DNA of 64,000 nucleotides from a virus: the UHGV virus genome UHGV-0021337; one strand, 5' to 3'. Shown piece by piece: positions 2,318 through 15,846 of this stretch. The notes under the pieces were generated by a model. The model had not been told where the DNA came from. It made no database searches and was given only the letters and a program-made list of their open reading frames with translations. Position 1 is the stretch's first letter; every line of letters starts with the position of its first letter. The translations under genes and the position numbers were made by a program.

Positions 2318-2451
2318 AGCAAGAAATCTAAACTTCTCGACTTTCTTGAATTTGTTAAGTTACTAGAAGTTTCAAGTACTAAATTACTTATCAATTTAAT
2401 TTAATAGTTTTGTATATGATTATAGCTTCTGGAGTTTTAGGTTATAGGTCT

Positions 2452-2465
2452 TGGTGGGCCCACCA
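2452..2465. promoter_or_regulatory. 14-bp perfect GC-rich palindrome TGGTGGGCCCACCA, between an extended -10 (TTTTGTATATGAT, about 2409-2420) and the HNH gene. Possible operator or structured 5' leader.
   Basis: Perfect dyad read directly. It lies inside the region the ORF track assigns as the N-terminus of the 2410 ORF. A -10 TATAAT sits at 2479-2484 and an AGAGG RBS at 2491-2495. Confidence 0.4.
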
Positions 2466-2499
2466 GTTAGCCAGACTCTATAATCACTCTAGAGGTTGT

Positions 2500-3414
2500 A
2501 TGAATACAGGTGAATTAAAGTATAAATTACTAGAAACAGGTTTGTTTATTGATAATAACTACTTAGACAAGTATGTTCAACATGTGTTAACTCAAAATCA
2601 GCTTGTACATGTTAACTATCAAAGTGAAAAGCATCATATAATTCCACGTTGTTACTTTGTCGAGTTACATAAACCTGTTGATAATTCTTCGGAAAACATT
2701 GTAGATTTAATGCGTTCTGATCATTGTATAGCGCATGTGTTGTTAAGCTTATGTGCAAAATCTTCACGATTACAGCAAGCCAACTATACTGCTGCGTATT
2801 ACACATTGCGAACAAAAGGCAAAACTAAAATGCCGATTGAGGATATCAATAAACTTCAATCTTGGTTGCAAGAACTAAATCTTTCAAAAGCTGTGGACTT
2901 TACAAAGAGTGAACAGTTTAAATTTTTACATACACAACTTAGATGGTATACCGACGGTAAGAGTGAGTTGTATATGTCTATAGATAAAACAGTTCCCGAC
3001 GGTTATTTTCCTGGACGACTCAGAACTAGATTACAAGGTCTAAACAAAGGCACATTCTGGGCCAACGATGGAGTTAAAAACTTTAAAGTTACTTCACTTG
3101 ACAGTTTACCTGAAGGTGTACATGCAGGTATGTTACCAAGTGAATCAAAACACTGCAATTGTGGTCGTTTTGAACGCACACAAGCAACAAGAGATAAGTT
3201 AAGTGCTGCTCGTAAAGCTTATTATGCTAAAAATCCAGGGGTACGAAACGCAGGCAATTTTGTTAAAAGACAAGTCGGAATACTTTCTGGTCGTATCAGT
3301 ATAACTAATGGTGTTAAGAATAAGTTTATATTTAAGGAAGACCTTCCTAAGTGGGAATCAATAGGCTGGTACTGTGGATCAACTCAGGTGTGGCATAAAC
3401 GTAAAGGGAAATAA
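2500..3414 (+). CDS. free-standing HNH homing endonuclease (start revised from 2410 to the ATG at 2500)
   Basis: The segment SEKHHIIPRCYFVELHKPVDNSSENIVDLMRSDHCIAHVLL is a classic H-N-H motif (HH...N...H). The basic C-terminal half is consistent with a DNA-binding tail. RBS AGAGG lies 5 nt before ATG 2500. Upstream codons 2410-2499 span a palindrome and a promoter and look non-coding. Confidence 0.7.
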   Translation: MNTGELKYKLLETGLFIDNNYLDKYVQHVLTQNQLVHVNYQSEKHHIIPRCYFVELHKPVDNSSENIVDLMRSDHCIAHVLLSLCAKSSRLQQANYTAAYYTLRTKGKTKMPIEDINKLQSWLQELNLSKAVDFTKSEQFKFLHTQLRWYTDGKSELYMSIDKTVPDGYFPGRLRTRLQGLNKGTFWANDGVKNFKVTSLDSLPEGVHAGMLPSESKHCNCGRFERTQATRDKLSAARKAYYAKNPGVRNAGNFVKRQVGILSGRISITNGVKNKFIFKEDLPKWESIGWYCGSTQVWHKRKGK

Positions 3415-3416
3415 AC

Positions 3417-4907
3417 ATGAGTGATGTTAGTTTTTCATACAAGTCTTTAAGCGAAGAAGAGAAAAAGTCTCGTAATATTCTTGGTAGACTCTCTGGTGTG
3501 CTTGCAGACTTTAAACATCCCACACGAAATGGGCGCTTATATTCAGAAGCGCTTTGGGATAAAACTCTAAATAGTGACTTATTTAAGGAGCAGATAAAAA
3601 ATCGCTGCGTCTTAGGAGAACTAGGTCACCCAGAAAATAGAGATGAGATAGACATAGAAAAAGTAGCTATTTGTTTATCTGAAACACCTACTAAGATGTC
3701 AGACGGCACAATTCAGGGGATATTTGATATTCTTGATACCCCGAATGGACGCATTCTTAAAACATTGTGTGACTACGGATGCAATATTGGGATTTCTAGC
3801 CGCGGGAACGGTGACGTTGAAACAAACGTGATGGGCGAGGAAGTCGTAGATCCTGACACCTACGACTTAAAGTGCTGGGATGCCGTATTGTTACCAGCCG
3901 TTAAAGCTGCAAGAATGCGTGTGGTCGAATCATTAGAAAATAAAAAGTCATTAAAACAAGCATTAACTGAAGCCTTAAATGATGCTGATGAAGATGCTCG
4001 TAAAGTAATGACTGATACATTAAACAACTTAAAAATTGATATTGAAGAGTCCGAAGCCGAAGAAACAGTTGACGATGTCAAAGTTGAAATGGTAAAAGAA
4101 CTTCAAGAATCGATTAAGGCAAAACAATCTTTAGAAACTGAAAATAGACACTTACAAGAAAAGTTGTCAGTTTGCTATGCAAAAGAAACCAGCCTTGAAG
4201 AAGAATTACAAAGATTTAAATCTACTGTAGTTTCATTGTCTGACAGTGCAAAGAAAGTTAAACCTTTACAAACAAAAGTTGAAGCTTTAACTGAAGCATT
4301 AAATGCAAAAGATGAAGTTATCAACAAGATGAATGTAAGAATTCAAAAACTAACTGAAAGTTTGAAAGCTTCAGAAAGTCAACAAACAAGATTAACTGAA
4401 AATTTATCTGCTAAATCAAAAGAGGCTGATAAACGCTTGAATGAAAGTCTTGCTAAAAACAAAACTTTAATAGAGCAAGTTAAGAAATTTGAAGAAGAAA
4501 AAGCACAACTTAAAGAAAGTTTAGAAAACTTACGCAAAGACGCATCGTTGAAAGCAAATGAGTACAAAGCGTCACTTGAAAAAACTTCTAAATTAGTAGA
4601 ACACTATAAACAAGTTGCTAACAATGTTTCCGATTACTACATAAAATCGAGAGCAGCTGCGTTAGGTATTTCTGCACAAGAAATAAAAAATAGACTTGCT
4701 GAAAGTTACACTTATGAAGATGTTAATAAAGTGTGCGATGATATTCGTGATTATCAACTAAATGTGTCGAAACTACCTTTCGACTTAAAACGTTCAAAAG
4801 TGAAAGTTACTGAGTCAAAAGAAACTCTAGCTCCTCTAAAACAAAATCTCGACGACGAAGTCGACGAACAACTTTTAGGGTTAGCAAACTCAATGATTAA
4901 AAAATAA
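3417..4907 (+). CDS. putative prohead protease / scaffolding protein (N-terminal globular domain plus about 300-aa coiled coil)
   Basis: It lies between the portal and the major capsid gene. Residues about 180-480 are heptad-rich and charged (KLTESLKASESQQTRLTENLSAK...), typical of scaffolds. The N-terminal domain (GELGHPENRDEIDIEK...SSRGNGD) could be a protease domain. The protease function is inferred from position only. Confidence 0.4.
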   Translation: MSDVSFSYKSLSEEEKKSRNILGRLSGVLADFKHPTRNGRLYSEALWDKTLNSDLFKEQIKNRCVLGELGHPENRDEIDIEKVAICLSETPTKMSDGTIQGIFDILDTPNGRILKTLCDYGCNIGISSRGNGDVETNVMGEEVVDPDTYDLKCWDAVLLPAVKAARMRVVESLENKKSLKQALTEALNDADEDARKVMTDTLNNLKIDIEESEAEETVDDVKVEMVKELQESIKAKQSLETENRHLQEKLSVCYAKETSLEEELQRFKSTVVSLSDSAKKVKPLQTKVEALTEALNAKDEVINKMNVRIQKLTESLKASESQQTRLTENLSAKSKEADKRLNESLAKNKTLIEQVKKFEEEKAQLKESLENLRKDASLKANEYKASLEKTSKLVEHYKQVANNVSDYYIKSRAAALGISAQEIKNRLAESYTYEDVNKVCDDIRDYQLNVSKLPFDLKRSKVKVTESKETLAPLKQNLDDEVDEQLLGLANSMIKK

Positions 4908-4928: not shown

Positions 4929-6332
4929 ATGGCAACATTGCTTGAAAATTATGCTAAGAAATTAGCGATTTCTGAATCTGTTTATGCCAATGCACATAGC
5001 GGTGCTAAACTTTCTGACACAAAGAAAATAGCAATTGCTACTGTACTTGACAACACATCCAAATTCCTCAACGAAGCTTTTACTAACTCCGTTGGTACTC
5101 AAAGAGCAGATATGGGATTATTTAAACGTTTCTGCTTGAACCTGACTACTGTCACGATGCCAAACCTTATTGCGTCTGACCTTGTTATCGTTCATCCAAT
5201 GACCTCTATGGCCGGATACATTGCATATGTTCAGTATGTAAAAGGAACTAACAAAGGTGAAAGCAAACAAGGCGACCTTATCGCTGATCCTTTCAAACTT
5301 GGAAAAGTTGATGCGAACTATACTGCGGCTAGAGTAGTTGAAACATTCAAAGGTGACGCAACTACTAAAGACTTCACCGTTGCGTGGACTCCTGTTTTTG
5401 ACAAGAAAGATGCTAACGGTAAATACGTTGAACTTAAAGTTTTTGTAAACGGTGTTCAAGAAGCTGATGCTGATATCACAGTTGACAGCGCTACTGGTAA
5501 AATTACACTTAAAAATGCTCCTGGAACAGACGTTGAAGTTCGTATTGCTTATGTTTATGACAACATCGTTATTCCTCAGAACGACCTCCCCATTCTTAAC
5601 GCACAGATGACTTCTATGCCTCTTTTAGCTAAAGCTCGTAGAATCGCTGTTTACTACAGCCAGATCGCTGCTTTCCAAGCTAAACAGGATTATGGATTTG
5701 ATCTTGGTGATCAACTTGCAGAAAAAGCAGTTGCAGAACTTGCTTATGAAATTGATACTGAAATCACAAATCTTCTTATCGAAAATGCAGACGCTGATAC
5801 AACGTTGAGATGGAATAAAGCTCTTCCCACTGGTGTTTCTAAAGCAGAACATTATGCAGGTTTCGGTGAAATAGTTGAAGATGCTGCAAAAGTTATCTAC
5901 AAAAGAACTCAGAAACACATGCCTACTTACATGCTTATCTCTCCTGAAATTAAACCTGTGTTGAAATTTGTTCCTGGATTTACTGCTGCTTCTGTAACAA
6001 CTGTTAATGGTCCTTACTATGCAGGAACGCTTGATGGTTTGAAAGTATTCGTAACTCCTAACATTGAAGATAATAAATTTGTTCTCGGTGTTAATGGAAA
6101 CGATATGATGACCAGCGCAGCTGTTTATGCTCCTTATATGGCCATCGTTCCTACTCAACTTCTACAGTACGCTGACGGCGGAACAAGCCAGGGCTTCAGC
6201 ACAATGTACGATTTGAAAATCCTTAACAAAGACCTTCTTGTTAAAGGCGAAATCTACACTGACGTAACTGAAATCGTTTCCAACGTAGTTGGGTCGAGAG
6301 AAGTTGCTAAAGGCGACAACGGTCAAGTTTAA
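4929..6332 (+). CDS. major capsid protein
   Basis: 467 aa, directly after the scaffold-like gene. It is followed by the strongest intrinsic terminator in the module. Codon usage is consistent with high expression. No motif-level proof. Confidence 0.55.
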   Translation: MATLLENYAKKLAISESVYANAHSGAKLSDTKKIAIATVLDNTSKFLNEAFTNSVGTQRADMGLFKRFCLNLTTVTMPNLIASDLVIVHPMTSMAGYIAYVQYVKGTNKGESKQGDLIADPFKLGKVDANYTAARVVETFKGDATTKDFTVAWTPVFDKKDANGKYVELKVFVNGVQEADADITVDSATGKITLKNAPGTDVEVRIAYVYDNIVIPQNDLPILNAQMTSMPLLAKARRIAVYYSQIAAFQAKQDYGFDLGDQLAEKAVAELAYEIDTEITNLLIENADADTTLRWNKALPTGVSKAEHYAGFGEIVEDAAKVIYKRTQKHMPTYMLISPEIKPVLKFVPGFTAASVTTVNGPYYAGTLDGLKVFVTPNIEDNKFVLGVNGNDMMTSAAVYAPYMAIVPTQLLQYADGGTSQGFSTMYDLKILNKDLLVKGEIYTDVTEIVSNVVGSREVAKGDNGQV

Positions 6333-6850: not shown

Positions 6851-6871
6851 GAGTTGCAGATTAAGGAACTT

Positions 6872-7597
6872 ATGGATTTTAAGTCAATTATTGAAGAAGT
6901 AAAATCAAACGTTACCGGCGGTGGTATACTAGAGTGTGAGCTAACCGACGAACAGTTTGGAAAAATTATAGATGCTTCATTTCGCGAAATACAGAGGTAT
7001 ATTGATGATACGCGTCTATTAACTTTACCTTATTCAAAATGTATTGACCTATCTGATAAATCCATATCCGCTGTAGTTCGAGTATACAGAGCAGTTGGAT
7101 ATCTTGCAGGAGATTCTGACACAGTAAGTAACGGAGGTTTCCCTGCTGACCCGATGTATATGGCTCAATGGCAGCTTTTCTCAGGCCCAAGTTCTTTGTA
7201 TAATGTTGACAATTTTGCTATGAATTATGGAGCTTGGAACACTGCGTTGCAAATAAAAAATACTGTTTCGACAGATCTCATATTCAGATATGAAAGATAT
7301 AACTCGAAACTTTATATAAATTGTCCTTATGACGTTCCAGAAAAAATAACAATCGAGTATATACCTCGGTATAACAATGTTGAAGAAATTGTTTCGGACT
7401 TCTGGATTGATAATCTACTTCGTCTATCTATTGCACAAACAAAGATTGCTTTAGGTAGATTAAGAACAAGGTTTACACAAGACAACGCATTGTGGCAGCA
7501 AGATGGTGAAACAATACTTGCCGAAGGACAAGAAGAATTGAAAGAAATACGGGAAAAATTAGATGCAGCAAGCCAGCTGTGCTACCCGGTTGATTAA
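6872..7597 (+). CDS. hypothetical structural protein (start revised to ATG 6872)
   Basis: RBS AAGGAA precedes ATG 6872. The ORF-track start at 6854 is TTG inside the hairpin. Confidence 0.5.
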   Translation: MDFKSIIEEVKSNVTGGGILECELTDEQFGKIIDASFREIQRYIDDTRLLTLPYSKCIDLSDKSISAVVRVYRAVGYLAGDSDTVSNGGFPADPMYMAQWQLFSGPSSLYNVDNFAMNYGAWNTALQIKNTVSTDLIFRYERYNSKLYINCPYDVPEKITIEYIPRYNNVEEIVSDFWIDNLLRLSIAQTKIALGRLRTRFTQDNALWQQDGETILAEGQEELKEIREKLDAASQLCYPVD

Positions 7598-7623: not shown

Positions 7624-9354
7624 ATGAGCATTATTCTTAATGAGGCATTTAGACAACTTGAAGCTATGGATCAGGATGTTTTTGATGCTGATAAGGAAGG
7701 ATTAAAAAAGCTTGATGCATTCCTGGACAATGATGAAGCAACCGATGTTTCGGTAGTTATCGACCCAGATGCAGAAAACGAAGATGAGTTGAAAGATTCT
7801 TACATAGGCAAAATACTTTGTCGTTGTGTGGTTTGTCAGTCAGATATAATGAAAGACGAAGATGACCTGCACGAAGACGAGGACTGTCCTGATGTAGTTA
7901 ATTGTGGTGAAGAGTGTCCTATGTGTCAATCTGTTGACGGTTATAAAATTATAGGACGAATTGCCCCTTACGAACTGCAGGATAAAGTAGAAGCTGACTT
8001 AGTAGAAGACTTACATGAAGGCGAAGATAAGAAAGAGCTTGATGATTACTACGACGATGTTGTAAACGCAATGATGGATACGTATTCCTACCTAACCAAA
8101 AACAAAGATGCTCTTATGTTTGCAGTAGATCCTGCTGTGTCTTGGTATGAAGATGATTATATGGATTTTACAGGCGAGTATCCCGACAATCCCGAAGACT
8201 CTATCATGGTGTCGAAAGATGATTTTAACAAATTCTTGAGACATTGGGTCAAACAATCTAAATGGGAAGAAATTCTTGCTGATGGTGTTAATGCGTACTT
8301 TGATGAAAATCCTGATGTCCTTAGAGAAGCTAAAGACGTCACTAAAGGCGAAAAGTCCATTGCAGCTGTTCTAAACAACGCTGAAAATAAAGCTAAAATG
8401 GAAGCGGCTGGTAGCGACGTAGAAAAGTTGAAAAGTGCTGTTTTAGACATACTTGAAGCTGATGAACTTAAAGGTAATAAAGCAATTGAAGACGCTAAAA
8501 GAATTCTTACTAATGCTGAAGGCTTTAAGTTTTTAACAACTCTTACAACTTATATGACTGGCAATAAGATTATAAGCAATAAGAGATATAACAAAAAAGA
8601 TGTTAAAGAAGCGTTTGCAGCTGCAGATTTAGCGGAATATCAAAGATGGGTTGACTTCGACATGAAGAAATATGGACGTATTTCCGATATTACAAAAAGC
8701 AAACTTGATAAAGCAGGCTTAGAAGTTGTTAAAGATGATCATGGAGACTACGAAGTTATCGCAAAAGAGGATGATGGAAAAGTTATAAATGAATCTGTAG
8801 ACAGCGTTGAAGTTAAAGCTGACGGTCAGAAAGTTGAAGTAAAACAAGAAGACGATAAAACTACAGTTGAAGTAAGCAAAGAATGTGAGAAGTGCGAAAA
8901 CGCTGAAACTATTGCTCCTATCGACGAAGTAGAAGAAAAAGAAATTGAAGCTAAACTCGACGCTAACGATGATGAGTTAGACATTGACGAGTTCAGCGAA
9001 GAAGACTTTGACGAATTAGGTGAATCTTATCTTAAACGTGTTTATGAAAATGTAGATGCGTATAAAACTACAAAAGGTTCTGTAAACGGAAATAAGATAA
9101 TGCTCGAAGGCGTTATAACATTCAAGTCTGGAAAGAAAGCAAAAACAAATTTCATGTTTGAATCTGCGAACAAAACAAAATCCGGAAAACTTAAATTCCT
9201 CGGTGAAAATAAACAGTTTGCAAAGAATAAAGCGTTTACTTTAACTGGACATAAAGACGGCAAAAAGTTGTTTATCGAAAGTTTTAACTACAAATATGCG
9301 ATAAAAGACGCAGACGGTAAATCGAAACAACTTTACGGAACTGTTAAGAAATAA
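7624..9354 (+). CDS. highly acidic head-module protein with a Cys cluster (CRCVVCQ...CPDVVNCGEECPMCQ) and a Lys-rich C-terminus
   Basis: RBS AGGAGA. The composition is extremely D/E-rich with a basic tail. It may be an internal or ejection protein, but that is speculation. Confidence 0.5.
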   Translation: MSIILNEAFRQLEAMDQDVFDADKEGLKKLDAFLDNDEATDVSVVIDPDAENEDELKDSYIGKILCRCVVCQSDIMKDEDDLHEDEDCPDVVNCGEECPMCQSVDGYKIIGRIAPYELQDKVEADLVEDLHEGEDKKELDDYYDDVVNAMMDTYSYLTKNKDALMFAVDPAVSWYEDDYMDFTGEYPDNPEDSIMVSKDDFNKFLRHWVKQSKWEEILADGVNAYFDENPDVLREAKDVTKGEKSIAAVLNNAENKAKMEAAGSDVEKLKSAVLDILEADELKGNKAIEDAKRILTNAEGFKFLTTLTTYMTGNKIISNKRYNKKDVKEAFAAADLAEYQRWVDFDMKKYGRISDITKSKLDKAGLEVVKDDHGDYEVIAKEDDGKVINESVDSVEVKADGQKVEVKQEDDKTTVEVSKECEKCENAETIAPIDEVEEKEIEAKLDANDDELDIDEFSEEDFDELGESYLKRVYENVDAYKTTKGSVNGNKIMLEGVITFKSGKKAKTNFMFESANKTKSGKLKFLGENKQFAKNKAFTLTGHKDGKKLFIESFNYKYAIKDADGKSKQLYGTVKK

Positions 9355-9379
9355 TAACTGATAGTGGAGGACGCCGTTA

Positions 9380-11590
9380 ATGAGTAAGTTATATGAAGAT
9401 AACAGAGCTCAGTTGATGGCGGCGAGCCGTTCAGCTCAAAAAGAGAACGACGGAAAAACACGCTATCAAAAAAGACTAAACTCTAGTATAGCGAGTTCTA
9501 ATCGAGAGTACAACCAAATCGACATGAACTCGTTATTCAAGAATAATATTTTAACTGTTAATATTCCCGTCAGAGGAGAAACGGATAACTATATTGTTAC
9601 TTTTTCCTTTGGCGGATTTTTAGATAAACTACACGACGAGCTTGAGCGTAATAACGAACAACTTCAACTAAGAGTTGTTATAAGAGCTGTTGTTGATTGT
9701 TTCAATTCAGACAATGTTTACATACGATGTAATTGTTTACATCCTGATACAGAAATCTTGCTTCTAGACGGGACCAAGGCTCGTGTCGAAGACTTGTGTA
9801 CTCGTTTTAACAGTGGTGAGCAGTTATTTGTCTACTCTACTGACGATAAAGGAGATTTTAAGCCAGGCGTTGTTCGCAATGTTTGGAAATCGGGAAGCTC
9901 TTCTGAGCTTGTCAAAGTTACTCTTGATAGCGGAGACATCATTCAGACAACTCCAGACCATAGATTTATGCTGCGTGATGGCTCATATATTGCCGCCAAA
10001 GACCTAAAAGAACATCAGTCACTGATGCCAATGTATTTTTCAGACTACAACGGTTACCAAACTGTTAAATTTAATAGTACTGGAAAATATCACTCAGTGT
10101 ATAAACAAGTTGCATCAGAGTTACTGGCTGATAAAATTACTGCTGCAGAGATTCGTGAAGCATCAGCCGATAAACACGGACCTTACAAAGTAGCAATTCA
10201 TCATAAAGATTTTAATAAGCGTAACAACACTCCAACTAATCTAGAGCCGCTTACTTGGGAAGAACACTGGATGTATCATGCGTCCTTAGGGTTCAATTCA
10301 TTCCCTAAAGAGACGCAAGATAAGATTAGAACTAGAGCTTCAGAATGGATGCAATGGTTAAACGCACATCCAACTGAAAAGATGTTAGAGCTAAGAAAAG
10401 AATACTGCGAGCGCGGTCGTTTAATGAATTACTTACCTGAACGGCAAGAACAGCAACGACACGTGATGAGTAAAGCAATAACAACGTACTGGCAAACGAT
10501 GTCAGACGAAGAGCGTGAGCGTCAGTCAAAAGCTAGGTCCGAGCGTTCTAAAGCTGCTGCGGAACGGGGATGTCTTAAAACCGAGAAGTTTCACACAGCT
10601 GCACTTAAACGGGGTAAAGATATGCACACAACTGAGCGCGAAAAGCTAATTGTAGCAGGTGTACGTAGATATTGGAACTCTCTTAAGGGTGAAGCTCGAG
10701 AGGCACGTGTTGCTATCTGTAGGAAAAATATTCAGAAATCTATCGACGCACGTCGAGGAACTCCTCTTACGCAAGAACACAAGGATAAAATACGTGCTAG
10801 TCGAGAACGTGAAACTCCTGAACAGCTTGCAGTTCGCGTGCAAAAATGTAACGAAACTAAAATACTTACTGTACTAAATTATCTGATAGATAACAAGCTA
10901 GAATTGACTTTGGACAACTACAACCAAATCAAAAAACGCGAATTCAACTCGTATCCCTCGATTGATAAACGATTTGAATCTATTGATGATGCTGTTAGCT
11001 ATTTCCAACTTAATCACAAAGTTGCAAAAGTTGAGTTCGTGCATCTAACTGACCCCATTGACGTTTATGATATAGATGTTGATACGTGGCACAACTTTAC
11101 AACAGCTGCAGGGGTTGTTCTGCATAATTGCGAGGACTTCCACTATCGTTTTTCCTATTGGGCCACAAAAACTGACATAATAACAGGTCCTAAGGAAAAT
11201 ATACCTTCGGATATAACAAACCCGAGCAACACCTTGGGCAAAGGCTGTAAGCATATAATGCTCTGTCTTTCTAATACCAGATGGTGTATAAAAGTAGCCG
11301 CTGTAATTAAAAACTACATTGAGTACATGGAAAGACATTTACAGTCAATGTATGCAAAAGTTATCTATCCTGCAATTTATAAACGCGATTATGAAGAGCC
11401 TATACAACAGTCAATGTTTGATACAGATGAATTAGAAACTAGTAGCGAAGTAATTGACACTGCAAGTAAAGAGGCTCGCAAGAAAGGTCAATTCCAAACT
11501 GGCAATCCGTATAGATTTACTAAACAACCAGATAAAGACCAAATATCCATTGACGACATCGAAGTTGAGGACGAGGTAAGTGAAGAATGA
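9380..11590 (+). CDS. intein-containing virion-module protein. The spliced extein would be about 271 aa of unknown function.
   Basis: RBS GGAGGA. There is an in-frame insertion bounded by canonical intein motifs (next feature). Confidence 0.6.
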   Translation: MSKLYEDNRAQLMAASRSAQKENDGKTRYQKRLNSSIASSNREYNQIDMNSLFKNNILTVNIPVRGETDNYIVTFSFGGFLDKLHDELERNNEQLQLRVVIRAVVDCFNSDNVYIRCNCLHPDTEILLLDGTKARVEDLCTRFNSGEQLFVYSTDDKGDFKPGVVRNVWKSGSSSELVKVTLDSGDIIQTTPDHRFMLRDGSYIAAKDLKEHQSLMPMYFSDYNGYQTVKFNSTGKYHSVYKQVASELLADKITAAEIREASADKHGPYKVAIHHKDFNKRNNTPTNLEPLTWEEHWMYHASLGFNSFPKETQDKIRTRASEWMQWLNAHPTEKMLELRKEYCERGRLMNYLPERQEQQRHVMSKAITTYWQTMSDEERERQSKARSERSKAAAERGCLKTEKFHTAALKRGKDMHTTEREKLIVAGVRRYWNSLKGEAREARVAICRKNIQKSIDARRGTPLTQEHKDKIRASRERETPEQLAVRVQKCNETKILTVLNYLIDNKLELTLDNYNQIKKREFNSYPSIDKRFESIDDAVSYFQLNHKVAKVEFVHLTDPIDVYDIDVDTWHNFTTAAGVVLHNCEDFHYRFSYWATKTDIITGPKENIPSDITNPSNTLGKGCKHIMLCLSNTRWCIKVAAVIKNYIEYMERHLQSMYAKVIYPAIYKRDYEEPIQQSMFDTDELETSSEVIDTASKEARKKGQFQTGNPYRFTKQPDKDQISIDDIEVEDEVSEE
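9734..11128 (+). mobile_element. intein (465 aa) with HNH endonuclease and NUMOD3-like repeats
   Basis: N-terminal block A is CLHPDTEILLLDG, starting with Cys at 9734. The C-terminal block G is VYDIDVDTWHNFTTAAGVVLHN, followed by Cys+1 (CEDF) at 11129. The internal HNH motif is AIHHKDFNKRNNTPTNLEPLTWEEHWMYH. Several repeats of the H-x-E-x-K-x-K-I/R type (for example TQEHKDKIRASRE) are NUMOD3-like. Confidence 0.75.
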
Positions 11591-12078
11591 AAGATATAGG
11601 TATTCTTTACAACGAACAAAATCTTAAACTACAAAGAATTTACTTTAACCAGATGCTTCGTATGATTGGTATAAAAGTACTTCATTACGCTCCTTTACCG
11701 GGTAAAAGATACACAACATATGCAGAAATAAAAACAGCCTTCGAGGAACCAGTTGTTACTGGATGCGTATTTGAAGAACATCCTACTCAAAAAACAATGA
11801 AGAAGTTAGGCTGGGATTCTGAAAGACAAGAAGATGCTTCTTTGATAAGTGTGCCTTATGACTTAGCTCATGTTCAAGCAGGCTCTCTATTTGCTTTACC
11901 AAGCGGTATTGATAATTCAGAAGCGAGACTATTTAGAGTTGTAGAGATGAGCACTATAATGCTATATCCTGCATCGATAACGTGTAAACTAGTTCCAGAA
12001 TGGGCAAATACAGCTCGAGAATCACAGATTGTTAATTTTAAGACACAAGATTTTAACTTGTTAAGAGAGGAAGAATGA
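11587..12078 (+). CDS. hypothetical head/neck protein
   Basis: ORF in the operon, overlapping the stop of the previous gene. Confidence 0.45.
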   Translation: MKDIGILYNEQNLKLQRIYFNQMLRMIGIKVLHYAPLPGKRYTTYAEIKTAFEEPVVTGCVFEEHPTQKTMKKLGWDSERQEDASLISVPYDLAHVQAGSLFALPSGIDNSEARLFRVVEMSTIMLYPASITCKLVPEWANTARESQIVNFKTQDFNLLREEE

Positions 12079-12833
12079 TTCTAGTAGAAAAGAATTTATT
12101 GTCTGCAAAAGAGACTGATGAACTCTTAACAAAACGTGGCTCAGATAAAACTAAATATCTTGCCTCGAAAGCAAAAGAAAAGTTTGGAAATGATCCCGAC
12201 TATGACGTTTATTCAGACGTTTTAGTCGATAGCTTAGAACAGTATGGTACCGACACAGCACAAAACAAATTTTTACAATACATTGTTACTAAGAGTGCTA
12301 CCCCATTCAATATGCAAAAAAGTCAGCCCTACTTGATTTATAACATTCTAAACAACGCTGAGGCAAATGTTACGACAGGAGCGGCTGCAAAAAGTTCTTG
12401 GTTATATAATCCTAACGCATATAATGGTAGTGATTTTAAGTTGAAAGCTTTAGCGTTTTTGTCTAGTAAAGATGCTGAAAATTATGGTGACCTAAAAACT
12501 AAACCAACGCAGAAAATACTCAATACTACTGATGATAGTGAGATTGAGACATTGCTTAGTAATTGGCAGACTAAAGATGGTGAGTCAAACTCCCGAGTCA
12601 CATATCGCAGAGCTTCTTCAAAAAATTCAGGAACAAATTATTTTAGTAAAGATTCTAAAAAAGTTGCTGCAGACAAAGCTCAAAAACTCAATCTTATAAA
12701 AGACACATATTCTTCGAGCTCTGCAGATATTGCGTCTGCAATTGATAAAGTATATAGACCAGGCATCACAGATGCAGACCTACTTACTGGTGTATCGAGG
12801 ATTTTAGGACAGAATGCTCTTGCTACTAAGTAA
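12075..12833 (+). CDS. hypothetical head/neck protein
   Basis: ORF with an ATGA overlap. Confidence 0.45.
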   Translation: MILVEKNLLSAKETDELLTKRGSDKTKYLASKAKEKFGNDPDYDVYSDVLVDSLEQYGTDTAQNKFLQYIVTKSATPFNMQKSQPYLIYNILNNAEANVTTGAAAKSSWLYNPNAYNGSDFKLKALAFLSSKDAENYGDLKTKPTQKILNTTDDSEIETLLSNWQTKDGESNSRVTYRRASSKNSGTNYFSKDSKKVAADKAQKLNLIKDTYSSSSADIASAIDKVYRPGITDADLLTGVSRILGQNALATK

Positions 12834-13224
12834 CCCGCAGAATCAAGATTTAACTGATTTATGTGATGATATAATAACTAAATTAAGTATAAGAGCTAAA
12901 GATAATATCTGGTATACACCTGGCTTAACTAGTTTGTGGGACAACTATTTAATTGAGTTGTATCAACCTGCTGAAGTTAGTCCAACTGTTGTGCAAATCT
13001 TCGAAGGATACTTCAATAATCTAATTTATGAGCAACAAGGAACTGACTATATAGTAAGAGTTGATCCAAACGCTAGATTAGAAGGTATTGAAGCTACAAT
13101 TCAAGAGTTAGCAAATATAATAAATTATGGCACTTTAGATATGCCTAGTTATCCGATATTTGATAAGTTATTTGACGCAGAAGCAGAAGAACTAACTAGC
13201 GAACAAGAGCAGGAGGATGAATAA
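12814..13224 (+). CDS. hypothetical neck/adaptor protein (acidic C-terminus)
   Basis: ORF overlapping the previous gene by 20 nt. RBS AGGACAGA. Confidence 0.45.
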   Translation: MLLLLSNPQNQDLTDLCDDIITKLSIRAKDNIWYTPGLTSLWDNYLIELYQPAEVSPTVVQIFEGYFNNLIYEQQGTDYIVRVDPNARLEGIEATIQELANIINYGTLDMPSYPIFDKLFDAEAEELTSEQEQEDE

Positions 13225-13874
13225 TGTCCGTAGGACTTTATGATAAAGCTCTTACTGACAAGATAAAAAGATGGGTTGTTGACCCAAATCTTGTTGTTCT
13301 TGGACCAGATGAGAGTGAACAACTATTTCGTTGGAAAGCTGATATAACTAACGATAGACCTATTGAATTACCTTTAATTTCAATACGTCGTGATTCAGAC
13401 ATAACAATAAATTTAACTGCTAAACGAAAGATGAGTTATCAAGGTAAGACCTTTTCAAGCAACGGAAAGACTTCCGACCATTTGAACGGTATACCAATGA
13501 CACTCAGTTATCAAATTGATGTATATACTCGCTATAGAGCTGAAGCTGACGAATATCTAAGAAATTTTGTATATAATATTGTAAATCATCCAAAGATGAC
13601 TATCGACATTCCGTACAATGATTCTAATAAACAGCAAGATTCTTTCATAGCACTAGAAGGGACTGTTACAGATACTTCTGATATTCCAGAACGGTTAATA
13701 GTCGGGCAGTTTACTAGGTACACAATTCCGATAAAGATAATTGATGCTTATCTATTTTCATATAACTTCAAAGATATTCCAAAAGTTGTATGTACAGGAA
13801 TTCAAGCAAACAAAGACTTGTCAAATAAGTCTCCAGACTTTAGTAATAGTGACGAGTTTTATAATATATCATAA
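13224..13874 (+). CDS. hypothetical neck/tail-completion protein
   Basis: RBS GGAGGA, ATGA-type coupling. Confidence 0.45.
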   Translation: MSVGLYDKALTDKIKRWVVDPNLVVLGPDESEQLFRWKADITNDRPIELPLISIRRDSDITINLTAKRKMSYQGKTFSSNGKTSDHLNGIPMTLSYQIDVYTRYRAEADEYLRNFVYNIVNHPKMTIDIPYNDSNKQQDSFIALEGTVTDTSDIPERLIVGQFTRYTIPIKIIDAYLFSYNFKDIPKVVCTGIQANKDLSNKSPDFSNSDEFYNIS

Positions 13875-13894: not shown

Positions 13895-15241
13895 ATGCCT
13901 AAGATTACAATATATGAATCTGACTTGACAGGCTCTCAATACACAGGAGACGAGATTGTCGTATTTCTCCCTGGTAACTGTATAATTGCAGACGGTAAAG
14001 CAGATAAGAATGGTTGTATACTAATTCCCGAAAAATCAATTTTATCAAACTACATTTATTCAGATTATGTGCAACTGATTACAAATGTGTTGACTGCTAA
14101 AGAAATATTTGTGAAAACAGATTACACAGTTTCTACAGATGATGACAGCAATACTGTACTTACATTTAGTCTCGCAGGAACATATACATCTGCACTAGAC
14201 GCGTTGAACGCTACAAGCATACCTGAAAATGCATACCAAGCTAATGACCAAAAAAAGACAATAACAATTACTAAATATGCTTCCGATGACAGCTATTTAT
14301 TCGCAGAAATGTTGACAAATAAAGGATTCCAAGTGTTATACTATTCTGGCGCTATAAATACTGCACTCTTTGAAAATACTTGGTTCAAAGATAAAAATGA
14401 ATATAACATCAAGTATCTAACAACAGGTATGAACGGTTCACTTCCTGTAGATAAGGGCACAGCATTATATGCGTTGCTCATTTCAATATGCAATAGCAGA
14501 ATGGACTGTGTCGCGTTGATTGACACTTTGAAGCCAACAAAAAATTACACATATGACGACTTGAAAAAAGCTGTTCAAAATGTTAACGATGAAGAAGGAC
14601 GTGCTGCATTATTTGCAGATTGGGGATACATAGACGCATTAAATAACAAGATGATGCCTGGTTCTTATTTCTATCTTAGTGCATTAGGCGATTCTGTCAA
14701 CGCAGGAAAGAAGTGGGATTCTATAGCAGGTGTTAAACGTGGTGTATTGACGAGTTATGTTAAACCTGTAGCTCTTAATCTTTCGAAATACGATTTAGAT
14801 AACAACGTTATGGATTTAACCGCAGAAGGCAACCGTAGTTATAATGGTATTGTTAACATTAGACCTTATGGTTGGACAATCTGGGGGGACAGAACTCTTC
14901 GTCTAAATAATTCTGGCACAGGTTTGAAAGCAACTTCGTTTTTAAGCATAAGAGTTCTTGTTTGCGACATAGCAAAAAGAGCATACCAATCTGCTATAAA
15001 CAATACTTTTGAAAGCAACAACGATGTAACTTGGATGAATTATAAAACTTCCATTACACAGTTGCTTGACAAGATGGTTGCCGATTATAAGTTAGCTGAT
15101 TATAAGATAGTTAAACTTCCTTCAGACCGTGTTGCTCAAATAAAATGTAAAATAAGACTTGTTCCTATTGAACCTGTTGAAGATTTCGACATATACATCA
15201 ACCTCGAAAACGCTACTGCGAACATTGAGGAACAGGGTTAA
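13895..15241 (+). CDS. putative tail sheath protein
   Basis: 448 aa, immediately followed by a roughly 200-aa gene and a strong terminator. Its position relative to the chaperone and tape-measure genes supports the call. No motif proof. Confidence 0.45.
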   Translation: MPKITIYESDLTGSQYTGDEIVVFLPGNCIIADGKADKNGCILIPEKSILSNYIYSDYVQLITNVLTAKEIFVKTDYTVSTDDDSNTVLTFSLAGTYTSALDALNATSIPENAYQANDQKKTITITKYASDDSYLFAEMLTNKGFQVLYYSGAINTALFENTWFKDKNEYNIKYLTTGMNGSLPVDKGTALYALLISICNSRMDCVALIDTLKPTKNYTYDDLKKAVQNVNDEEGRAALFADWGYIDALNNKMMPGSYFYLSALGDSVNAGKKWDSIAGVKRGVLTSYVKPVALNLSKYDLDNNVMDLTAEGNRSYNGIVNIRPYGWTIWGDRTLRLNNSGTGLKATSFLSIRVLVCDIAKRAYQSAINNTFESNNDVTWMNYKTSITQLLDKMVADYKLADYKIVKLPSDRVAQIKCKIRLVPIEPVEDFDIYINLENATANIEEQG

Positions 15242-15252
15242 GGAGAATATAG

Positions 15253-15846
15253 ATGTCAGCAGTTGAAAGTTTACAAAAAGGTGCTTACCACATTGCTAAC
15301 AACAAGATAGAATACAATCCTCAAAGGAAAAGTAATTTTACGCTTATTGTTAATGGGCTAGAAGGGCTTAAGAGAGTAGGTTCTGCACATGACGATTCTG
15401 CAAATGTAATAACAGATGCTCAAAATCAAATTATTCTTGCATTAAAATCTTCAGATGTTCCGAAAGTTGCAATTGGTAAGTCAGAAATAAAACGTGGTAA
15501 CTCAACAATAAAATTTGCAGGTAAGCCTACATTTGACGATATAACATTTACTGTTTATGATTATATGGGCTCGAATGTTAAAGATACCTTACTTGCGTGG
15601 CAAAATCTTGCATACAATACACGTTACGATTATATAGGTAATGCAGCAAATTACAAGAAAACTTGTCAGTTAATTGAATACACTCCAGATGCGACAATGG
15701 TTAGATATTGGGACATAACTGGAGCGTGGTTAAGCAACGTCGAAGCAGATGGCTTTGAAGTTGACGATGAAGGAACCGTAACCGTTAAGGCAACACTCGT
15801 ATTTGATTGGGCTGAAATGCATATGCCAGATGAATTTGAAGGCTAA
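15253..15846 (+). CDS. putative tail tube protein
   Basis: 197 aa. The sheath-tube-terminator-chaperone-TMP synteny supports the call. Confidence 0.45.
   Translation: MSAVESLQKGAYHIANNKIEYNPQRKSNFTLIVNGLEGLKRVGSAHDDSANVITDAQNQIILALKSSDVPKVAIGKSEIKRGNSTIKFAGKPTFDDITFTVYDYMGSNVKDTLLAWQNLAYNTRYDYIGNAANYKKTCQLIEYTPDATMVRYWDITGAWLSNVEADGFEVDDEGTVTVKATLVFDWAEMHMPDEFEG

What the first reader, a model, noticed from the sequence alone, without database searches (positions are those of the whole stretch)
9734..11128. Full-length HNH/NUMOD3 intein inside a virion-module gene
The sequence shows canonical splice junctions: N-terminal Cys in CLHPDTEILLLDG and HN|C at the C-terminus. An HNH motif lies inside. 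Inteins are classically found in replication and packaging enzymes (terminase, polymerase, helicase, RNR). Here the host gene sits between the capsid and neck genes, and its 271-aa extein has no recognisable function. Either the extein is an unrecognised enzyme packaged in the virion, or this is a rare structural-protein intein. The junction RCN|CED marks a probably conserved site of the extein.
Basis: seen in the sequence. Interest (0 to 1): 0.7.

Follow-up and report, generated by a model that had tools for sequence, protein, structure and literature searches.

The report
Intein inside phage SWIM zinc-finger gene
A gene in the neck/tail cluster of a human-gut T4-like phage is interrupted by a genuine, mobile self-splicing protein element (an intein with an HNH nuclease) that sits in the middle of a zinc-binding motif; the element is ordinary in mechanism, but the interrupted protein family was not found in the intein literature searched here.

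Summary
ORF 9380-11590 (736 aa) carries a 465-aa in-frame insertion (9734-11128). It passes the curated intein models (Pfam Intein_splicing, TIGR01445, TIGR01443), and it has Cys1, block B TxxH, a terminal His-Asn and a +1 Cys. Related gut phages lack exactly this DNA: alignments break at 9730/11128, and their genes are 816 nt, the length of the spliced gene.

The intein carries an HNH endonuclease whose motif residues are invariant in 109 relatives. NUMOD3 was not detected.

The extein is recognisable. It is a SWIM zinc finger (CxC...CxH) module, and the intein splits the CxC, so the +1 Cys is also the second predicted zinc ligand. The gene lies between a T4 gp13-like neck gene and a weak gp15-like gene/tail sheath, as in Bacillus phage SP-15.

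At least 120 relatives of the intein all sit in this extein family, at three sites within five residues. Mini-intein forms also occur. One relative is 88% identical in intein DNA but about 70% in extein DNA, which indicates horizontal movement.

In distant relatives the SWIM module is the C-terminus of proteins carrying ART-PolyVal and other effector domains. This suggests, but does not show, a virion-packaged anchor role.

Verdict: real intein, new member of a known kind.

The parts
9380..11590 (+). Precursor ORF, 736 aa (85.6 kDa), with the stop codon; RBS GGAGG at 9366-9370
   Evidence: An identical protein, P0121, lies on a 143-kb human-gut metagenome contig.
9380..9733 (+). N-extein, 118 aa, ending ...YIRCN. 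Cys117 (TGT 9728-9730) is the first Cys of the SWIM CxC.
   Evidence: Alignments A1 and A2: C117 is invariant.
9734..11128 (+). Intein, 465 aa (54.1 kDa), from Cys1 (CLHPD...) to ...VVLHN
   Evidence: Pfam Intein_splicing 65.2 bits. TIGR01445 and TIGR01443 score above their cut-offs. This DNA is absent from L011 and L003.
9734..10063 (+). N-terminal HINT splicing region (blocks A and B; Cys1, Thr73-x-x-His76)
   Evidence: TIGR01445 covers residues 1-79. C1, T73 and H76 are invariant in 109 of 109 relatives.
10169..10288 (+). HNH endonuclease core (AIHHKDFNKRNNTPTNLEPLTWEEHWMYH)
   Evidence: HNH_3 26.6 bits against a cut-off of 24.8 on the isolated segment. H156, H157, N165, N169, H178 and H182 are invariant. 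PHROG HNH families match.
10301..10933 (+). Basic, variable region between the HNH core and the C-terminal HINT part; presumed DNA-binding part of the endonuclease. It has degenerate [ST]xE...K/R-I motifs. NUMOD3 was not detected.
   Evidence: Only a weak RepB-RCR_reg match, 20.3 bits against 21. This is the most variable and gap-rich part of the family alignment. The DNA-binding role is inferred.
11012..11128 (+). C-terminal HINT splicing region (blocks F and G: VYDIDV...GVVLHN)
   Evidence: TIGR01443 covers residues 443-465. D446 is conserved in 108 of 109 relatives; H464 and N465 in 109 of 109.
11129..11587 (+). C-extein, 153 aa, starting CEDFHYRF. The +1 Cys (TGC 11129-11131) is the second Cys of the SWIM CxC. 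Cys623-Lys-His625 (11246-11254) is the CxH half.
   Evidence: C584, C623, K624 and H625 are invariant. SWIM PF04434 is matched by 38 of 57 homologues.
6854..7597 (+). Context: T4 gp13-like neck protein (head-tail adaptor Ad2)
   Evidence: phrog_211. PF26809 Phage_T4_gp13 on the same gene of the near-identical contig L005.
7624..9354 (+). Context: upstream 576-aa acidic protein with Cys-pair motifs and no family match
13224..13874 (+). Context: 216-aa protein with a weak match to the T4 gp15 tail sheath stabiliser
   Evidence: PF16724, E 0.014, 15 bits, below the cut-off
13895..15241 (+). Context: tail sheath, followed by the tail tube (15253-15846)
   Evidence: phrog_23; phrog_4542 and Phage_T4_gp19

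Best explanation
The insertion at 9734-11128 is a canonical class 1 intein that carries an HNH homing endonuclease. It interrupts a 271-aa SWIM zinc-finger protein encoded in the neck/tail gene cluster of a T4-like human-gut phage.

Shown here. The element has every sequence hallmark of a splicing-competent intein. It is a precise in-frame insertion that closely related phages lack. It sits between the two cysteines of the invariant CxC of the CxC...CxH motif. It belongs to a large intein family found so far only in this extein family, and it has moved between diverged phage lineages.

Inferred mechanism. The 85.6-kDa precursor splices in four steps: an N-S acyl shift at Cys1, transthioesterification to the +1 Cys, cyclisation of Asn465, and an S-N shift. 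The products would be the 31.5-kDa protein with the restored sequence ...RCN-CEDF... and a free 54-kDa intein. Because the +1 nucleophile is also the second predicted zinc ligand, the zinc site could form only after splicing. The free intein's HNH nuclease would cut intein-less alleles during co-infection, and repair would copy the intein in (homing).

More weakly inferred (about 0.4). The SWIM module is a virion-associated, possibly DNA- or neck-bound, anchor. In relatives it forms the C-terminus of polyvalent-type proteins carrying ADP-ribosyltransferase and other effector domains. In this window it stands alone.

The confidence given (0.85) is for the intein/homing part of this statement.
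For: - Intein models score above their curated cut-offs.
- C1, T73, H76, H464, N465 and the +1 Cys are invariant in 109 of 109 family members, and D446 in 108 of 109.
- The HNH motif is invariant, and HNH_3 scores above its cut-off on the isolated domain.
- Intein-free homologues of exactly 271 aa / 816 nt exist at 88-93% aa and 85-86% nt identity. DNA alignments break at 9730->11128 (L011) and 9735->11125 (L003), with the same neighbouring genes.
- Mobility: the intein of L012 is 88% nt / 90% aa identical, while its exteins are 68-71% nt / 65-66% aa and its major capsid protein 73% aa identical.
- Empty alleles, full-length inteins and mini-inteins of about 140-150 aa all occur in the family.
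- Position in the virion cluster is conserved in SP-15, LIS04 and HSE3.
- Fusion to effector domains: ART-PolyVal in 16 of 65 long relatives, plus SprT-like, NTase and NUDIX. One checked fused ORF is genuine, read with TGA as Trp. Two others lie in virion gene clusters.
- ART- and MuF-type polyvalent proteins encoded among virion genes are inferred to be packaged and injected (PMC5512222).
Against: - No experiment: splicing, zinc binding, nuclease activity and virion location are all untested.
- The window protein has no effector domain. Its 576-aa upstream neighbour is not similar to the N-terminal extensions of the fused relatives.
- HNH_3 is below its cut-off in the context of the whole protein.
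Confidence: 0.85

Rival explanations
1. The HINT domain acts as an autoproteolytic processing module (bacterial intein-like or pretoxin-HINT type). It would cleave the protein rather than ligate the flanks, as in polymorphic toxins.
For: There is a weak PT-HINT match (16 bits, E 0.013). Relatives of the extein occur in polyvalent-type multidomain proteins, where processing would be plausible.
Against: PT-HINT scores far below its cut-off of 27.7, whereas the intein models score above theirs. The terminal His-Asn and the +1 Cys are invariant. The flanks rejoin to give exactly the conserved CxC of intein-free homologues of identical length. An HNH homing nuclease is embedded, and the element moves as a unit.
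Confidence: 0.03
2. The element is a decayed, no longer splicing or no longer mobile intein. It would be retained as a permanent insertion, or the gene would be a pseudogene.
For: Nothing specific. HNH_3 is sub-threshold in the whole protein. Mini-inteins and shortened versions in the family show that decay does happen.
Against: All splicing and HNH residues are intact and invariant across 109 relatives. The ORF is open throughout. Intein DNA that is 88% identical sits in a phage whose exteins are about 70% identical, which argues for recent movement. The interrupted motif is invariant in the family, so a non-splicing insertion should be selected against.
Confidence: 0.05
3. The extein is a plain structural neck or head-completion protein (functional analogue of T4 gp14 or gp4) with a structural zinc site, and it is not an anchor for injected effectors.
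For: Its position is conserved between the gp13-like neck gene and the gp15-like gene/sheath in the window, SP-15, LIS04 and HSE3. The window protein has no effector domain. phrog_1722 is labelled 'tail protein'.
Against: There is no sequence similarity to T4 gp14, gp4 or gp15 and no fold match to solved phage neck proteins. Frequent N-terminal fusion to ART, SprT-like, NTase and NUDIX domains is unusual for a pure building block.
Confidence: 0.3
4. The extein is not a virion component. It would be a DNA-binding assembly or regulatory factor that is merely encoded among late genes.
For: SWIM domains are generally DNA- or protein-binding. No proteomic evidence was found.
Against: Tight, conserved synteny inside the neck/tail cluster. 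Fusion to ART-PolyVal domains, which Iyer et al. associate with packaged, injected proteins.
Confidence: 0.2

Closest known systems
Canonical class 1 inteins with an embedded homing endonuclease, as catalogued in phages (for example mycobacteriophage inteins in terminase, helicase, primase, methylase and portal protein; Kelley et al. 2016, PMC5050341)
   Same: Cys1, block B TxxH, terminal His-Asn and a +1 Cys. In-frame insertion at an invariant functional motif of the host protein. Sporadic presence and absence among close relatives. Insertion sites one or a few residues apart are also described there (TerL1-a and -b).
   Different: The host protein is a SWIM zinc-finger module of the neck/tail gene cluster, not a replication or packaging enzyme. 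The insertion point is inside a zinc-ligand pair rather than an ATPase or catalytic motif. No isolated phage in the 50,697-record collection has this intein; the best match is 22.8% identical, in another SP-15 gene.
HNH-type intein endonucleases (Pfam HNH_3), such as the HNH-associated PolB intein described for Pseudomonas phage MIJ3 (PMC6892783)
   Same: An HNH nuclease is associated with the HINT splicing domain. The His-His...Asn...Asn...His motif is conserved.
   Different: Here the intein is contiguous, not split. The nuclease is followed by a basic, variable region of about 210 aa with no Pfam match. NUMOD3 was not detected.
SWIM zinc finger (Pfam PF04434)
   Different: It is part of a 270-aa phage module with its own N- and C-terminal helices. 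The spacer between CxC and CxH is about 38 residues. The window's protein alone does not reach the Pfam model.
MuF / SPP1 gp7-type head modules of polyvalent proteins, and T4 Alt (Iyer et al. 2017, PMC5512222)
   Same: A module encoded among virion genes that, in many relatives, is fused to ART-PolyVal, SprT-like peptidase, nucleotidyltransferase or NUDIX effector domains.
   Different: No sequence relationship to MuF was seen. In that paper SWIM is mentioned only once, for SWI2/SNF2 ATPases and not as a polyvalent-protein module. Packaging of this module is untested. The window's copy carries no effector.

Membership tests
Intein (class 1) | In-frame insertion absent from homologues, whose flanks are contiguous in the intein-free protein | tested here: met
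   The 465-aa gap falls exactly between N118 and C584 in 11 homologues. Intein-free genes are 816 nt, the length of the spliced gene. DNA alignments break at 9730/11128 and 9735/11125.
Intein (class 1) | [quoted passage not shown] | tested here: met
   TIGR01445 scores 56.6 bits against a cut-off of 24.5. C1, T73 and H76 are invariant in 109 of 109 relatives.
Intein (class 1) | C-terminal splicing region: blocks F and G ending His-Asn, followed by Cys/Ser/Thr at +1 | tested here: met
   TIGR01443 scores 18.8 bits against a cut-off of 15.6. H464 and N465 are conserved in 109 of 109 relatives. The +1 Cys is present in all junctions listed.
Intein (class 1) | HINT domain profile match | tested here: met
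   PF14890 scores 62.6-65.2 bits against a cut-off of 35.8 and covers profile positions 2-155 of 155.
Intein (class 1) | Protein splicing actually occurs (ligated exteins and a free intein) | not testable with these tools
   Needs expression or mass spectrometry.
HNH homing endonuclease | HNH catalytic motif or profile | tested here: met
   HNH_3 scores 26.6 bits against a cut-off of 24.8 on residues 123-189 of the intein, but 21.9-22.5 bits in the whole protein. H156, H157, N165, N169, H178 and H182 are invariant.
HNH homing endonuclease | Evolutionary signature of mobility (the element is more similar than its host gene; there is an empty-site polymorphism) | tested here: met
   Intein 88% nt against exteins 68-71% nt between the window and L012. 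Empty alleles are 85-86% nt identical.
HNH homing endonuclease | Site-specific cleavage of the intein-less allele | not testable with these tools
   Needs an in vitro cleavage assay on the L011 or L003 target sequence.
NUMOD3 DNA-binding module | Match to Pfam PF07460 | tested here: not met
   Not reported at E<=1 on the whole protein or at E<=10 on the 207-aa and 57-aa segments. Only degenerate motif-level resemblance is seen by eye.
SWIM zinc finger (extein) | CxCxnCxH signature, conserved | tested here: met
   C117, C584, C623 and H625 are invariant in A1. C117, C119, C158 and H160 are invariant in 57 intein-free homologues.
SWIM zinc finger (extein) | Profile match to PF04434 | tested here: inconclusive
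   The window's spliced extein has no Pfam hit at E<=1. 38 of 57 homologues match at E<=1, with a best E of 7e-6. The domain is precomputed on P0108 and P0111.
SWIM zinc finger (extein) | Fold similarity to solved SWIM domains | tested here: inconclusive
SWIM zinc finger (extein) | Zinc binding | not testable with these tools
   Needs metal analysis of the spliced protein.
Polyvalent / virion-packaged effector proteins (Iyer et al. 2017) | Several effector domains in one polypeptide encoded among virion genes | tested here: not met
   The window protein is the SWIM module alone plus the intein. Relatives do meet this feature: ART-PolyVal in 16 of 65, plus SprT-like, NTase and NUDIX. So this is a functional lead, not membership.
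Polyvalent / virion-packaged effector proteins (Iyer et al. 2017) | Packaged in the virion and delivered to the host | not testable with these tools
   No proteomic data were found.
T4 neck/head-completion proteins (gp13, gp14, gp15, gp4, gp2, gp3) | Sequence similarity to the T4 proteins | tested here: not met
   The A2 profile against six T4 proteins gives all scores below 0 bits.
Pretoxin-HINT / bacterial intein-like domains | Profile match to PF07591 | tested here: not met
   16 bits against a cut-off of 27.7.

The most novel reading that the evidence does not exclude
The intein is more than a parasite. Its +1 nucleophile is a zinc ligand, and the precursor re-creates a Cys-x-Cys pair (Cys117-Asn-Cys1) at the N-junction. 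Splicing could therefore be gated by zinc or redox state. That would time the maturation of a SWIM module which, like MuF, anchors proteins (in relatives, ADP-ribosyltransferase effectors) in the virion for injection with the DNA. This would be a conditional-splicing switch on a new class of virion-targeting domain.
Probability: 0.08. Interest if true: 0.75.

Novelty: new member of a known kind. Interest (0 to 1): 0.45.

Why it matters
- It adds a host protein family and an insertion-site type (inside a zinc-ligand pair of a SWIM finger, in a neck/tail-cluster gene) to the exteins I found described for inteins. Most of those are replication, repair and packaging enzymes.
- The family is large: at least 120 intein-bearing clusters and 738 representatives of the extein module. 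It contains empty sites, full-length HNH inteins and mini-inteins.
- One intein lineage sits 1 and 4 residues away from the main site. This gives a natural data set for studying the homing cycle and how inteins shift insertion point.
- The conserved 270-aa SWIM module is a candidate virion-targeting or DNA-associated domain. In relatives it carries ADP-ribosyltransferase and other effector domains.
- The intein itself may be useful as a Cys1/Cys+1 HNH intein from a gut phage.

Tried and rejected
- blastn of 9000-12000 against 50,697 phage records gave no match. The phage is known only from metagenomes.
- I rejected the hypothesis that the extein is a T4 gp14, gp4, gp15, gp2 or gp3 homologue.
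- I rejected the hypothesis that the 576-aa upstream protein corresponds to the N-terminal extensions of fused relatives. Only one weak BLAST hit was found.
- The suspicion that the long 'fused' relatives are gene-calling artefacts was tested on one contig, L008. Seven in-frame TGA codons are spread through the ORF, two of them in the SWIM-module part, so that contig uses TGA=Trp and the fusion is real. L009 and L010 also fail to translate under table 11, but I did not inspect their stop codons.
- I looked for Cys 'scars' of lost site-b or site-c inteins in intein-free alleles and found none in 231 motifs.
- I looked for further related inteins or HNH domains in the window and found none.
- NUMOD3 was not detected.
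- Literature searches for intein+SWIM+phage, SWIM+virion and SWIM+neck found nothing relevant. No virion proteome covering the SP-15 homologue was found.
Full report
1. THE OBSERVATION

ORF 9380-11590 on the + strand is open for 736 codons and follows a GGAGG ribosome-binding site at 9366-9370. In its frame, TGT at 9734 begins CLHPDTEILLLDG. AAT at 11126-11128 ends ...GVVLHN. TGC at 11129 begins CEDFHYRF. The coordinates in the finding are therefore exact: a 465-aa insert (54.1 kDa) in a 271-aa host protein (31.5 kDa), with a precursor of 85.6 kDa.

This is not a chance motif match.
- Pfam Intein_splicing scores 62.6-65.2 bits against a curated cut-off of 35.8 and spans the whole profile.
- NCBIfam TIGR01445 (intein N-terminus) scores 56.6 against 24.5, and TIGR01443 (intein C-terminus) 18.8 against 15.6.
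- Block B is T73-P-D-H76.
- In an alignment of 109 full-length relatives, C1, T73, H76, H464 and N465 are invariant, and the block F Asp is present in 108 of 109.

2. IT IS AN INSERTION, NOT A CONTIGUOUS DOMAIN

A search with the conceptually spliced extein found 296 homologues. The best are 271 aa long and 93% and 88% identical. In the alignment the 465 residues fall as one clean gap between N118 and C584.

The DNA shows the same thing. The intein-free genes of contigs L003, L004 and L011 are 816 nt, exactly the length of the spliced gene, and are 85-86% identical to it without gaps. BLASTN alignments of those contigs to the window stop at 9730 or 9735 and resume at 11128 or 11125. The neighbouring genes are the same.

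3. THE ENDONUCLEASE

Residues of about 146-185 read AIHHKDFNKRNNTPTNLEPLTWEEHWMYH. HNH_3 is just below its cut-off in the whole protein (21.9-22.5 against 24.8) and above it on the isolated segment (26.6 bits, E 5e-6). PHROG HNH families also match. H156, H157, N165, N169, H178 and H182 are invariant in 109 of 109 relatives. This fits a nuclease under selection.

PF07460 is not reported at E<=1 or at E<=10. The basic region of about 210 aa after the HNH core has only a sub-threshold RepB-like match, and it is the most variable part of the family. By eye it contains degenerate [S/T]-x-E-x3-K/R-I motifs. A NUMOD-like role therefore remains a guess.

4. EVIDENCE THAT THE ELEMENT MOVES

A search with the intein returned 366 proteins. 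All 120 listed carry N- or C-extein similarity to this same host family, 115 of them on both sides.
- The intein of P0122 (contig L012) is 90% aa and 88% nt identical to the window's.
- The flanking exteins of L012 are only 65-66% aa and 68-71% nt identical.
- The major capsid, gp13-like and tube proteins of that phage are 73-80% aa identical to the window's.

The intein is thus much younger than the divergence of the two phages. Together with the empty alleles in closer relatives, this is the signature of homing. The intein is also slightly richer in G+C than its surroundings: 41% against 37% for the extein and 35% for the window. A profile search of 1.84 billion representatives additionally found mini-inteins of about 140-150 aa at the same place. 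Empty sites, nuclease-bearing inteins and nuclease-less inteins all coexist in the family.

5. THE HOST PROTEIN

The extein does carry a recognisable motif: C117-x-C584 ... C623-x-H625, all invariant. This is the SWIM zinc-finger signature.
- The window's own spliced sequence hits no Pfam family at E<=1.
- 38 of 57 intein-free homologues match PF04434, with a best E of 7e-6.
- In the viral structure library the same model matches SWIM-type proteins of the phages Motura and BcepSauron and an uncharacterised protein of phage Y3.

The intein sits between the two cysteines of the CxC. Its +1 nucleophile is therefore the second predicted zinc ligand, and the zinc site can exist only after splicing. 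This matches the usual preference of inteins for invariant functional residues (established knowledge; see also PMC5050341).

6. GENOMIC SETTING

The window encodes a T4-like morphogenetic module, in this order:
- portal (45-1520);
- a free-standing HNH homing endonuclease (2410-3414);
- prohead protease (3417-4907);
- major capsid protein (4929-6332);
- gp13-like neck protein (6854-7597);
- a 576-aa acidic protein (7624-9354);
- the SWIM/intein gene;
- four small genes, the last with a weak gp15 match (13224-13874);
- sheath, tube and baseplate hub.

The same order, with an intein-free SWIM protein of 181-184 aa, is found in Bacillus phages SP-15 and HSE3 and in Listeria phage LIS04. The gene therefore lies inside the neck/tail-completion cluster, downstream of the neck gene rather than strictly between capsid and neck. 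At least two of the source samples are human-gut metagenomes, one of them from the Hadza.

7. WHAT THE SWIM MODULE MIGHT DO

No solved phage neck or tail protein resembles it, and it is unrelated in sequence to T4 gp2, gp3, gp4, gp13, gp14 and gp15.

The most informative clue came from the representative search. In 97 of the 144 newly returned representatives (of the best 150), the complete module forms the C-terminus of a longer protein. Of 65 such proteins, 16 carry ART-PolyVal (PF18760). Others carry SprT-like, nucleotidyltransferase, NUDIX or DUF3990 domains.

I checked whether these fusions are artefacts. In contig L008 the ORF contains seven in-frame TGA codons spread along its length, two of them in the SWIM-module part (codons 727 and 869), so that contig uses TGA=Trp and the fusion is genuine. 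L009 and L010 also do not translate under table 11, but I did not inspect their stop codons. Those two loci still lie in virion gene clusters.

This domain repertoire is that of the polyvalent proteins of Iyer et al. When such proteins are encoded among virion genes, they are inferred to be packaged and injected with the DNA, with MuF as the usual head-anchoring module (PMC5512222). By analogy, the SWIM module may be a virion-anchoring or DNA-associated module. In the window it occurs alone. This is an inference with perhaps 40% confidence. A plain structural neck protein (about 30%) and a non-virion late factor (about 20%) remain open.

8. COMPARISON WITH WHAT IS KNOWN, AND NOVELTY

[quoted passage not shown] Inteins in virion proteins have precedent: portal proteins of mycobacteriophages.

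I found no description of an intein in a SWIM protein or in this gene family. No isolated phage in the 50,697-record collection carries it. The best match there is 22.8% identical and lies in a different SP-15 gene. It is therefore a new member of a known kind: a new extein family and insertion site.

9. A SIDE RESULT OF SOME INTEREST

The family uses three insertion points within five residues.
- Site a: ...C-x|C-P-D-F... This is the window's site; 87 of 109 relatives.
- Site c: ...C-x-C|C-D-F... 2 of 109.
- Site b: ...C-x-C-P-D-F|C-Y-R... 20 of 109.

At sites b and c the +1 Cys replaces a variable residue. In a neighbour-joining tree of the inteins, the b and c inteins form one bipartition (77 of 100 bootstraps), with c inside it. 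The corresponding exteins are scattered through the extein tree. This suggests a single shift of insertion point followed by spread. The tree is rough (NJ on corrected p-distances), and the result needs a proper phylogeny. No Cys 'scar' of a lost b or c intein was seen in 231 intein-free motifs.

10. VERDICT

- the intein and the HNH nuclease are real;
- NUMOD3 is not confirmed;
- the extein is a SWIM zinc-finger module rather than featureless;
- the 'packaged enzyme' idea is supported only through relatives.

Splicing, zinc binding, nuclease activity and virion location are all untested. Interest is moderate.

Noticed in passing
Relatives P0161, P0171, P0172, P0175, P0187, P0190 and others (junctions listed): Related inteins occupy three insertion points within five residues of the SWIM CxC: site a C-x|C (87 of 109), site c C-x-C|C (2) and site b C-x-C-P-D-F|C (20). 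The b and c inteins form one bipartition in an NJ tree (77 of 100 bootstraps), while their exteins are scattered. This suggests a single shift of insertion point followed by spread.
   Followed up: partly
Representatives P0243, P0248, P0250, P0318, P0327, P0347, P0376: Mini-inteins of about 140-150 aa, with no endonuclease domain, occur at the same sites in the same extein family. Shortened or partly aligning inteins also occur (P0168, P0197, P0200, P0226, P0228).
   Followed up: partly
Representatives P0263, P0261, P0287, P0324 and 12 others; loci L008, L009, L010: The whole SWIM module is the C-terminus of long proteins carrying ART-PolyVal (16 of 65), SprT-like, nucleotidyltransferase, NUDIX or DUF3990 domains. 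In L008 the ORF has seven in-frame TGA codons read as Trp, so that contig is recoded. L009 and L010 also fail to translate under table 11, but their codons were not inspected.
   Followed up: partly
window 2410-3414 (+): A free-standing homing endonuclease gene (phrog_655 / HNH phrog_12434, 334 aa) sits between the portal and prohead protease genes. The related phage L012 has no gene of this size there.
   Followed up: no
window 7624-9354 (+): The 576-aa protein directly upstream is highly acidic and Lys-rich. It has Cys-pair motifs (CRCVVCQS...CPMCQS) and no match in Pfam, PHROGs or NCBIfam. Its size varies among relatives (540 aa in L003, 364 aa in L012).
   Followed up: partly
window 9734-11128 compared with its surroundings: The intein is 41% G+C, against 37% for the extein and 35% for the window. 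In intein-free alleles, nucleotide identity to the window is lowest in the 30-60 nt around the insertion site (0.57-0.77). This fits either target-site divergence or co-conversion.
   Followed up: partly
L001 (Bacillus phage SP-15) 1046-3563; SP-15 record 12642-13772: The SP-15 major capsid protein gene is annotated as joined from two pieces, with an endonuclease ORF inside. A different SP-15 gene holds a distant (22.8% identical) full-length relative of this intein.
   Followed up: no
L010 1233-2048 and 12719-14584: In one recoded relative, the gene upstream of the ART-SWIM protein has weak Hom_end_hint/PT-HINT hits, and a MJ0330_N-family protein nearby carries its own Intein_splicing domain. 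This suggests these phages are rich in inteins.
   Followed up: no
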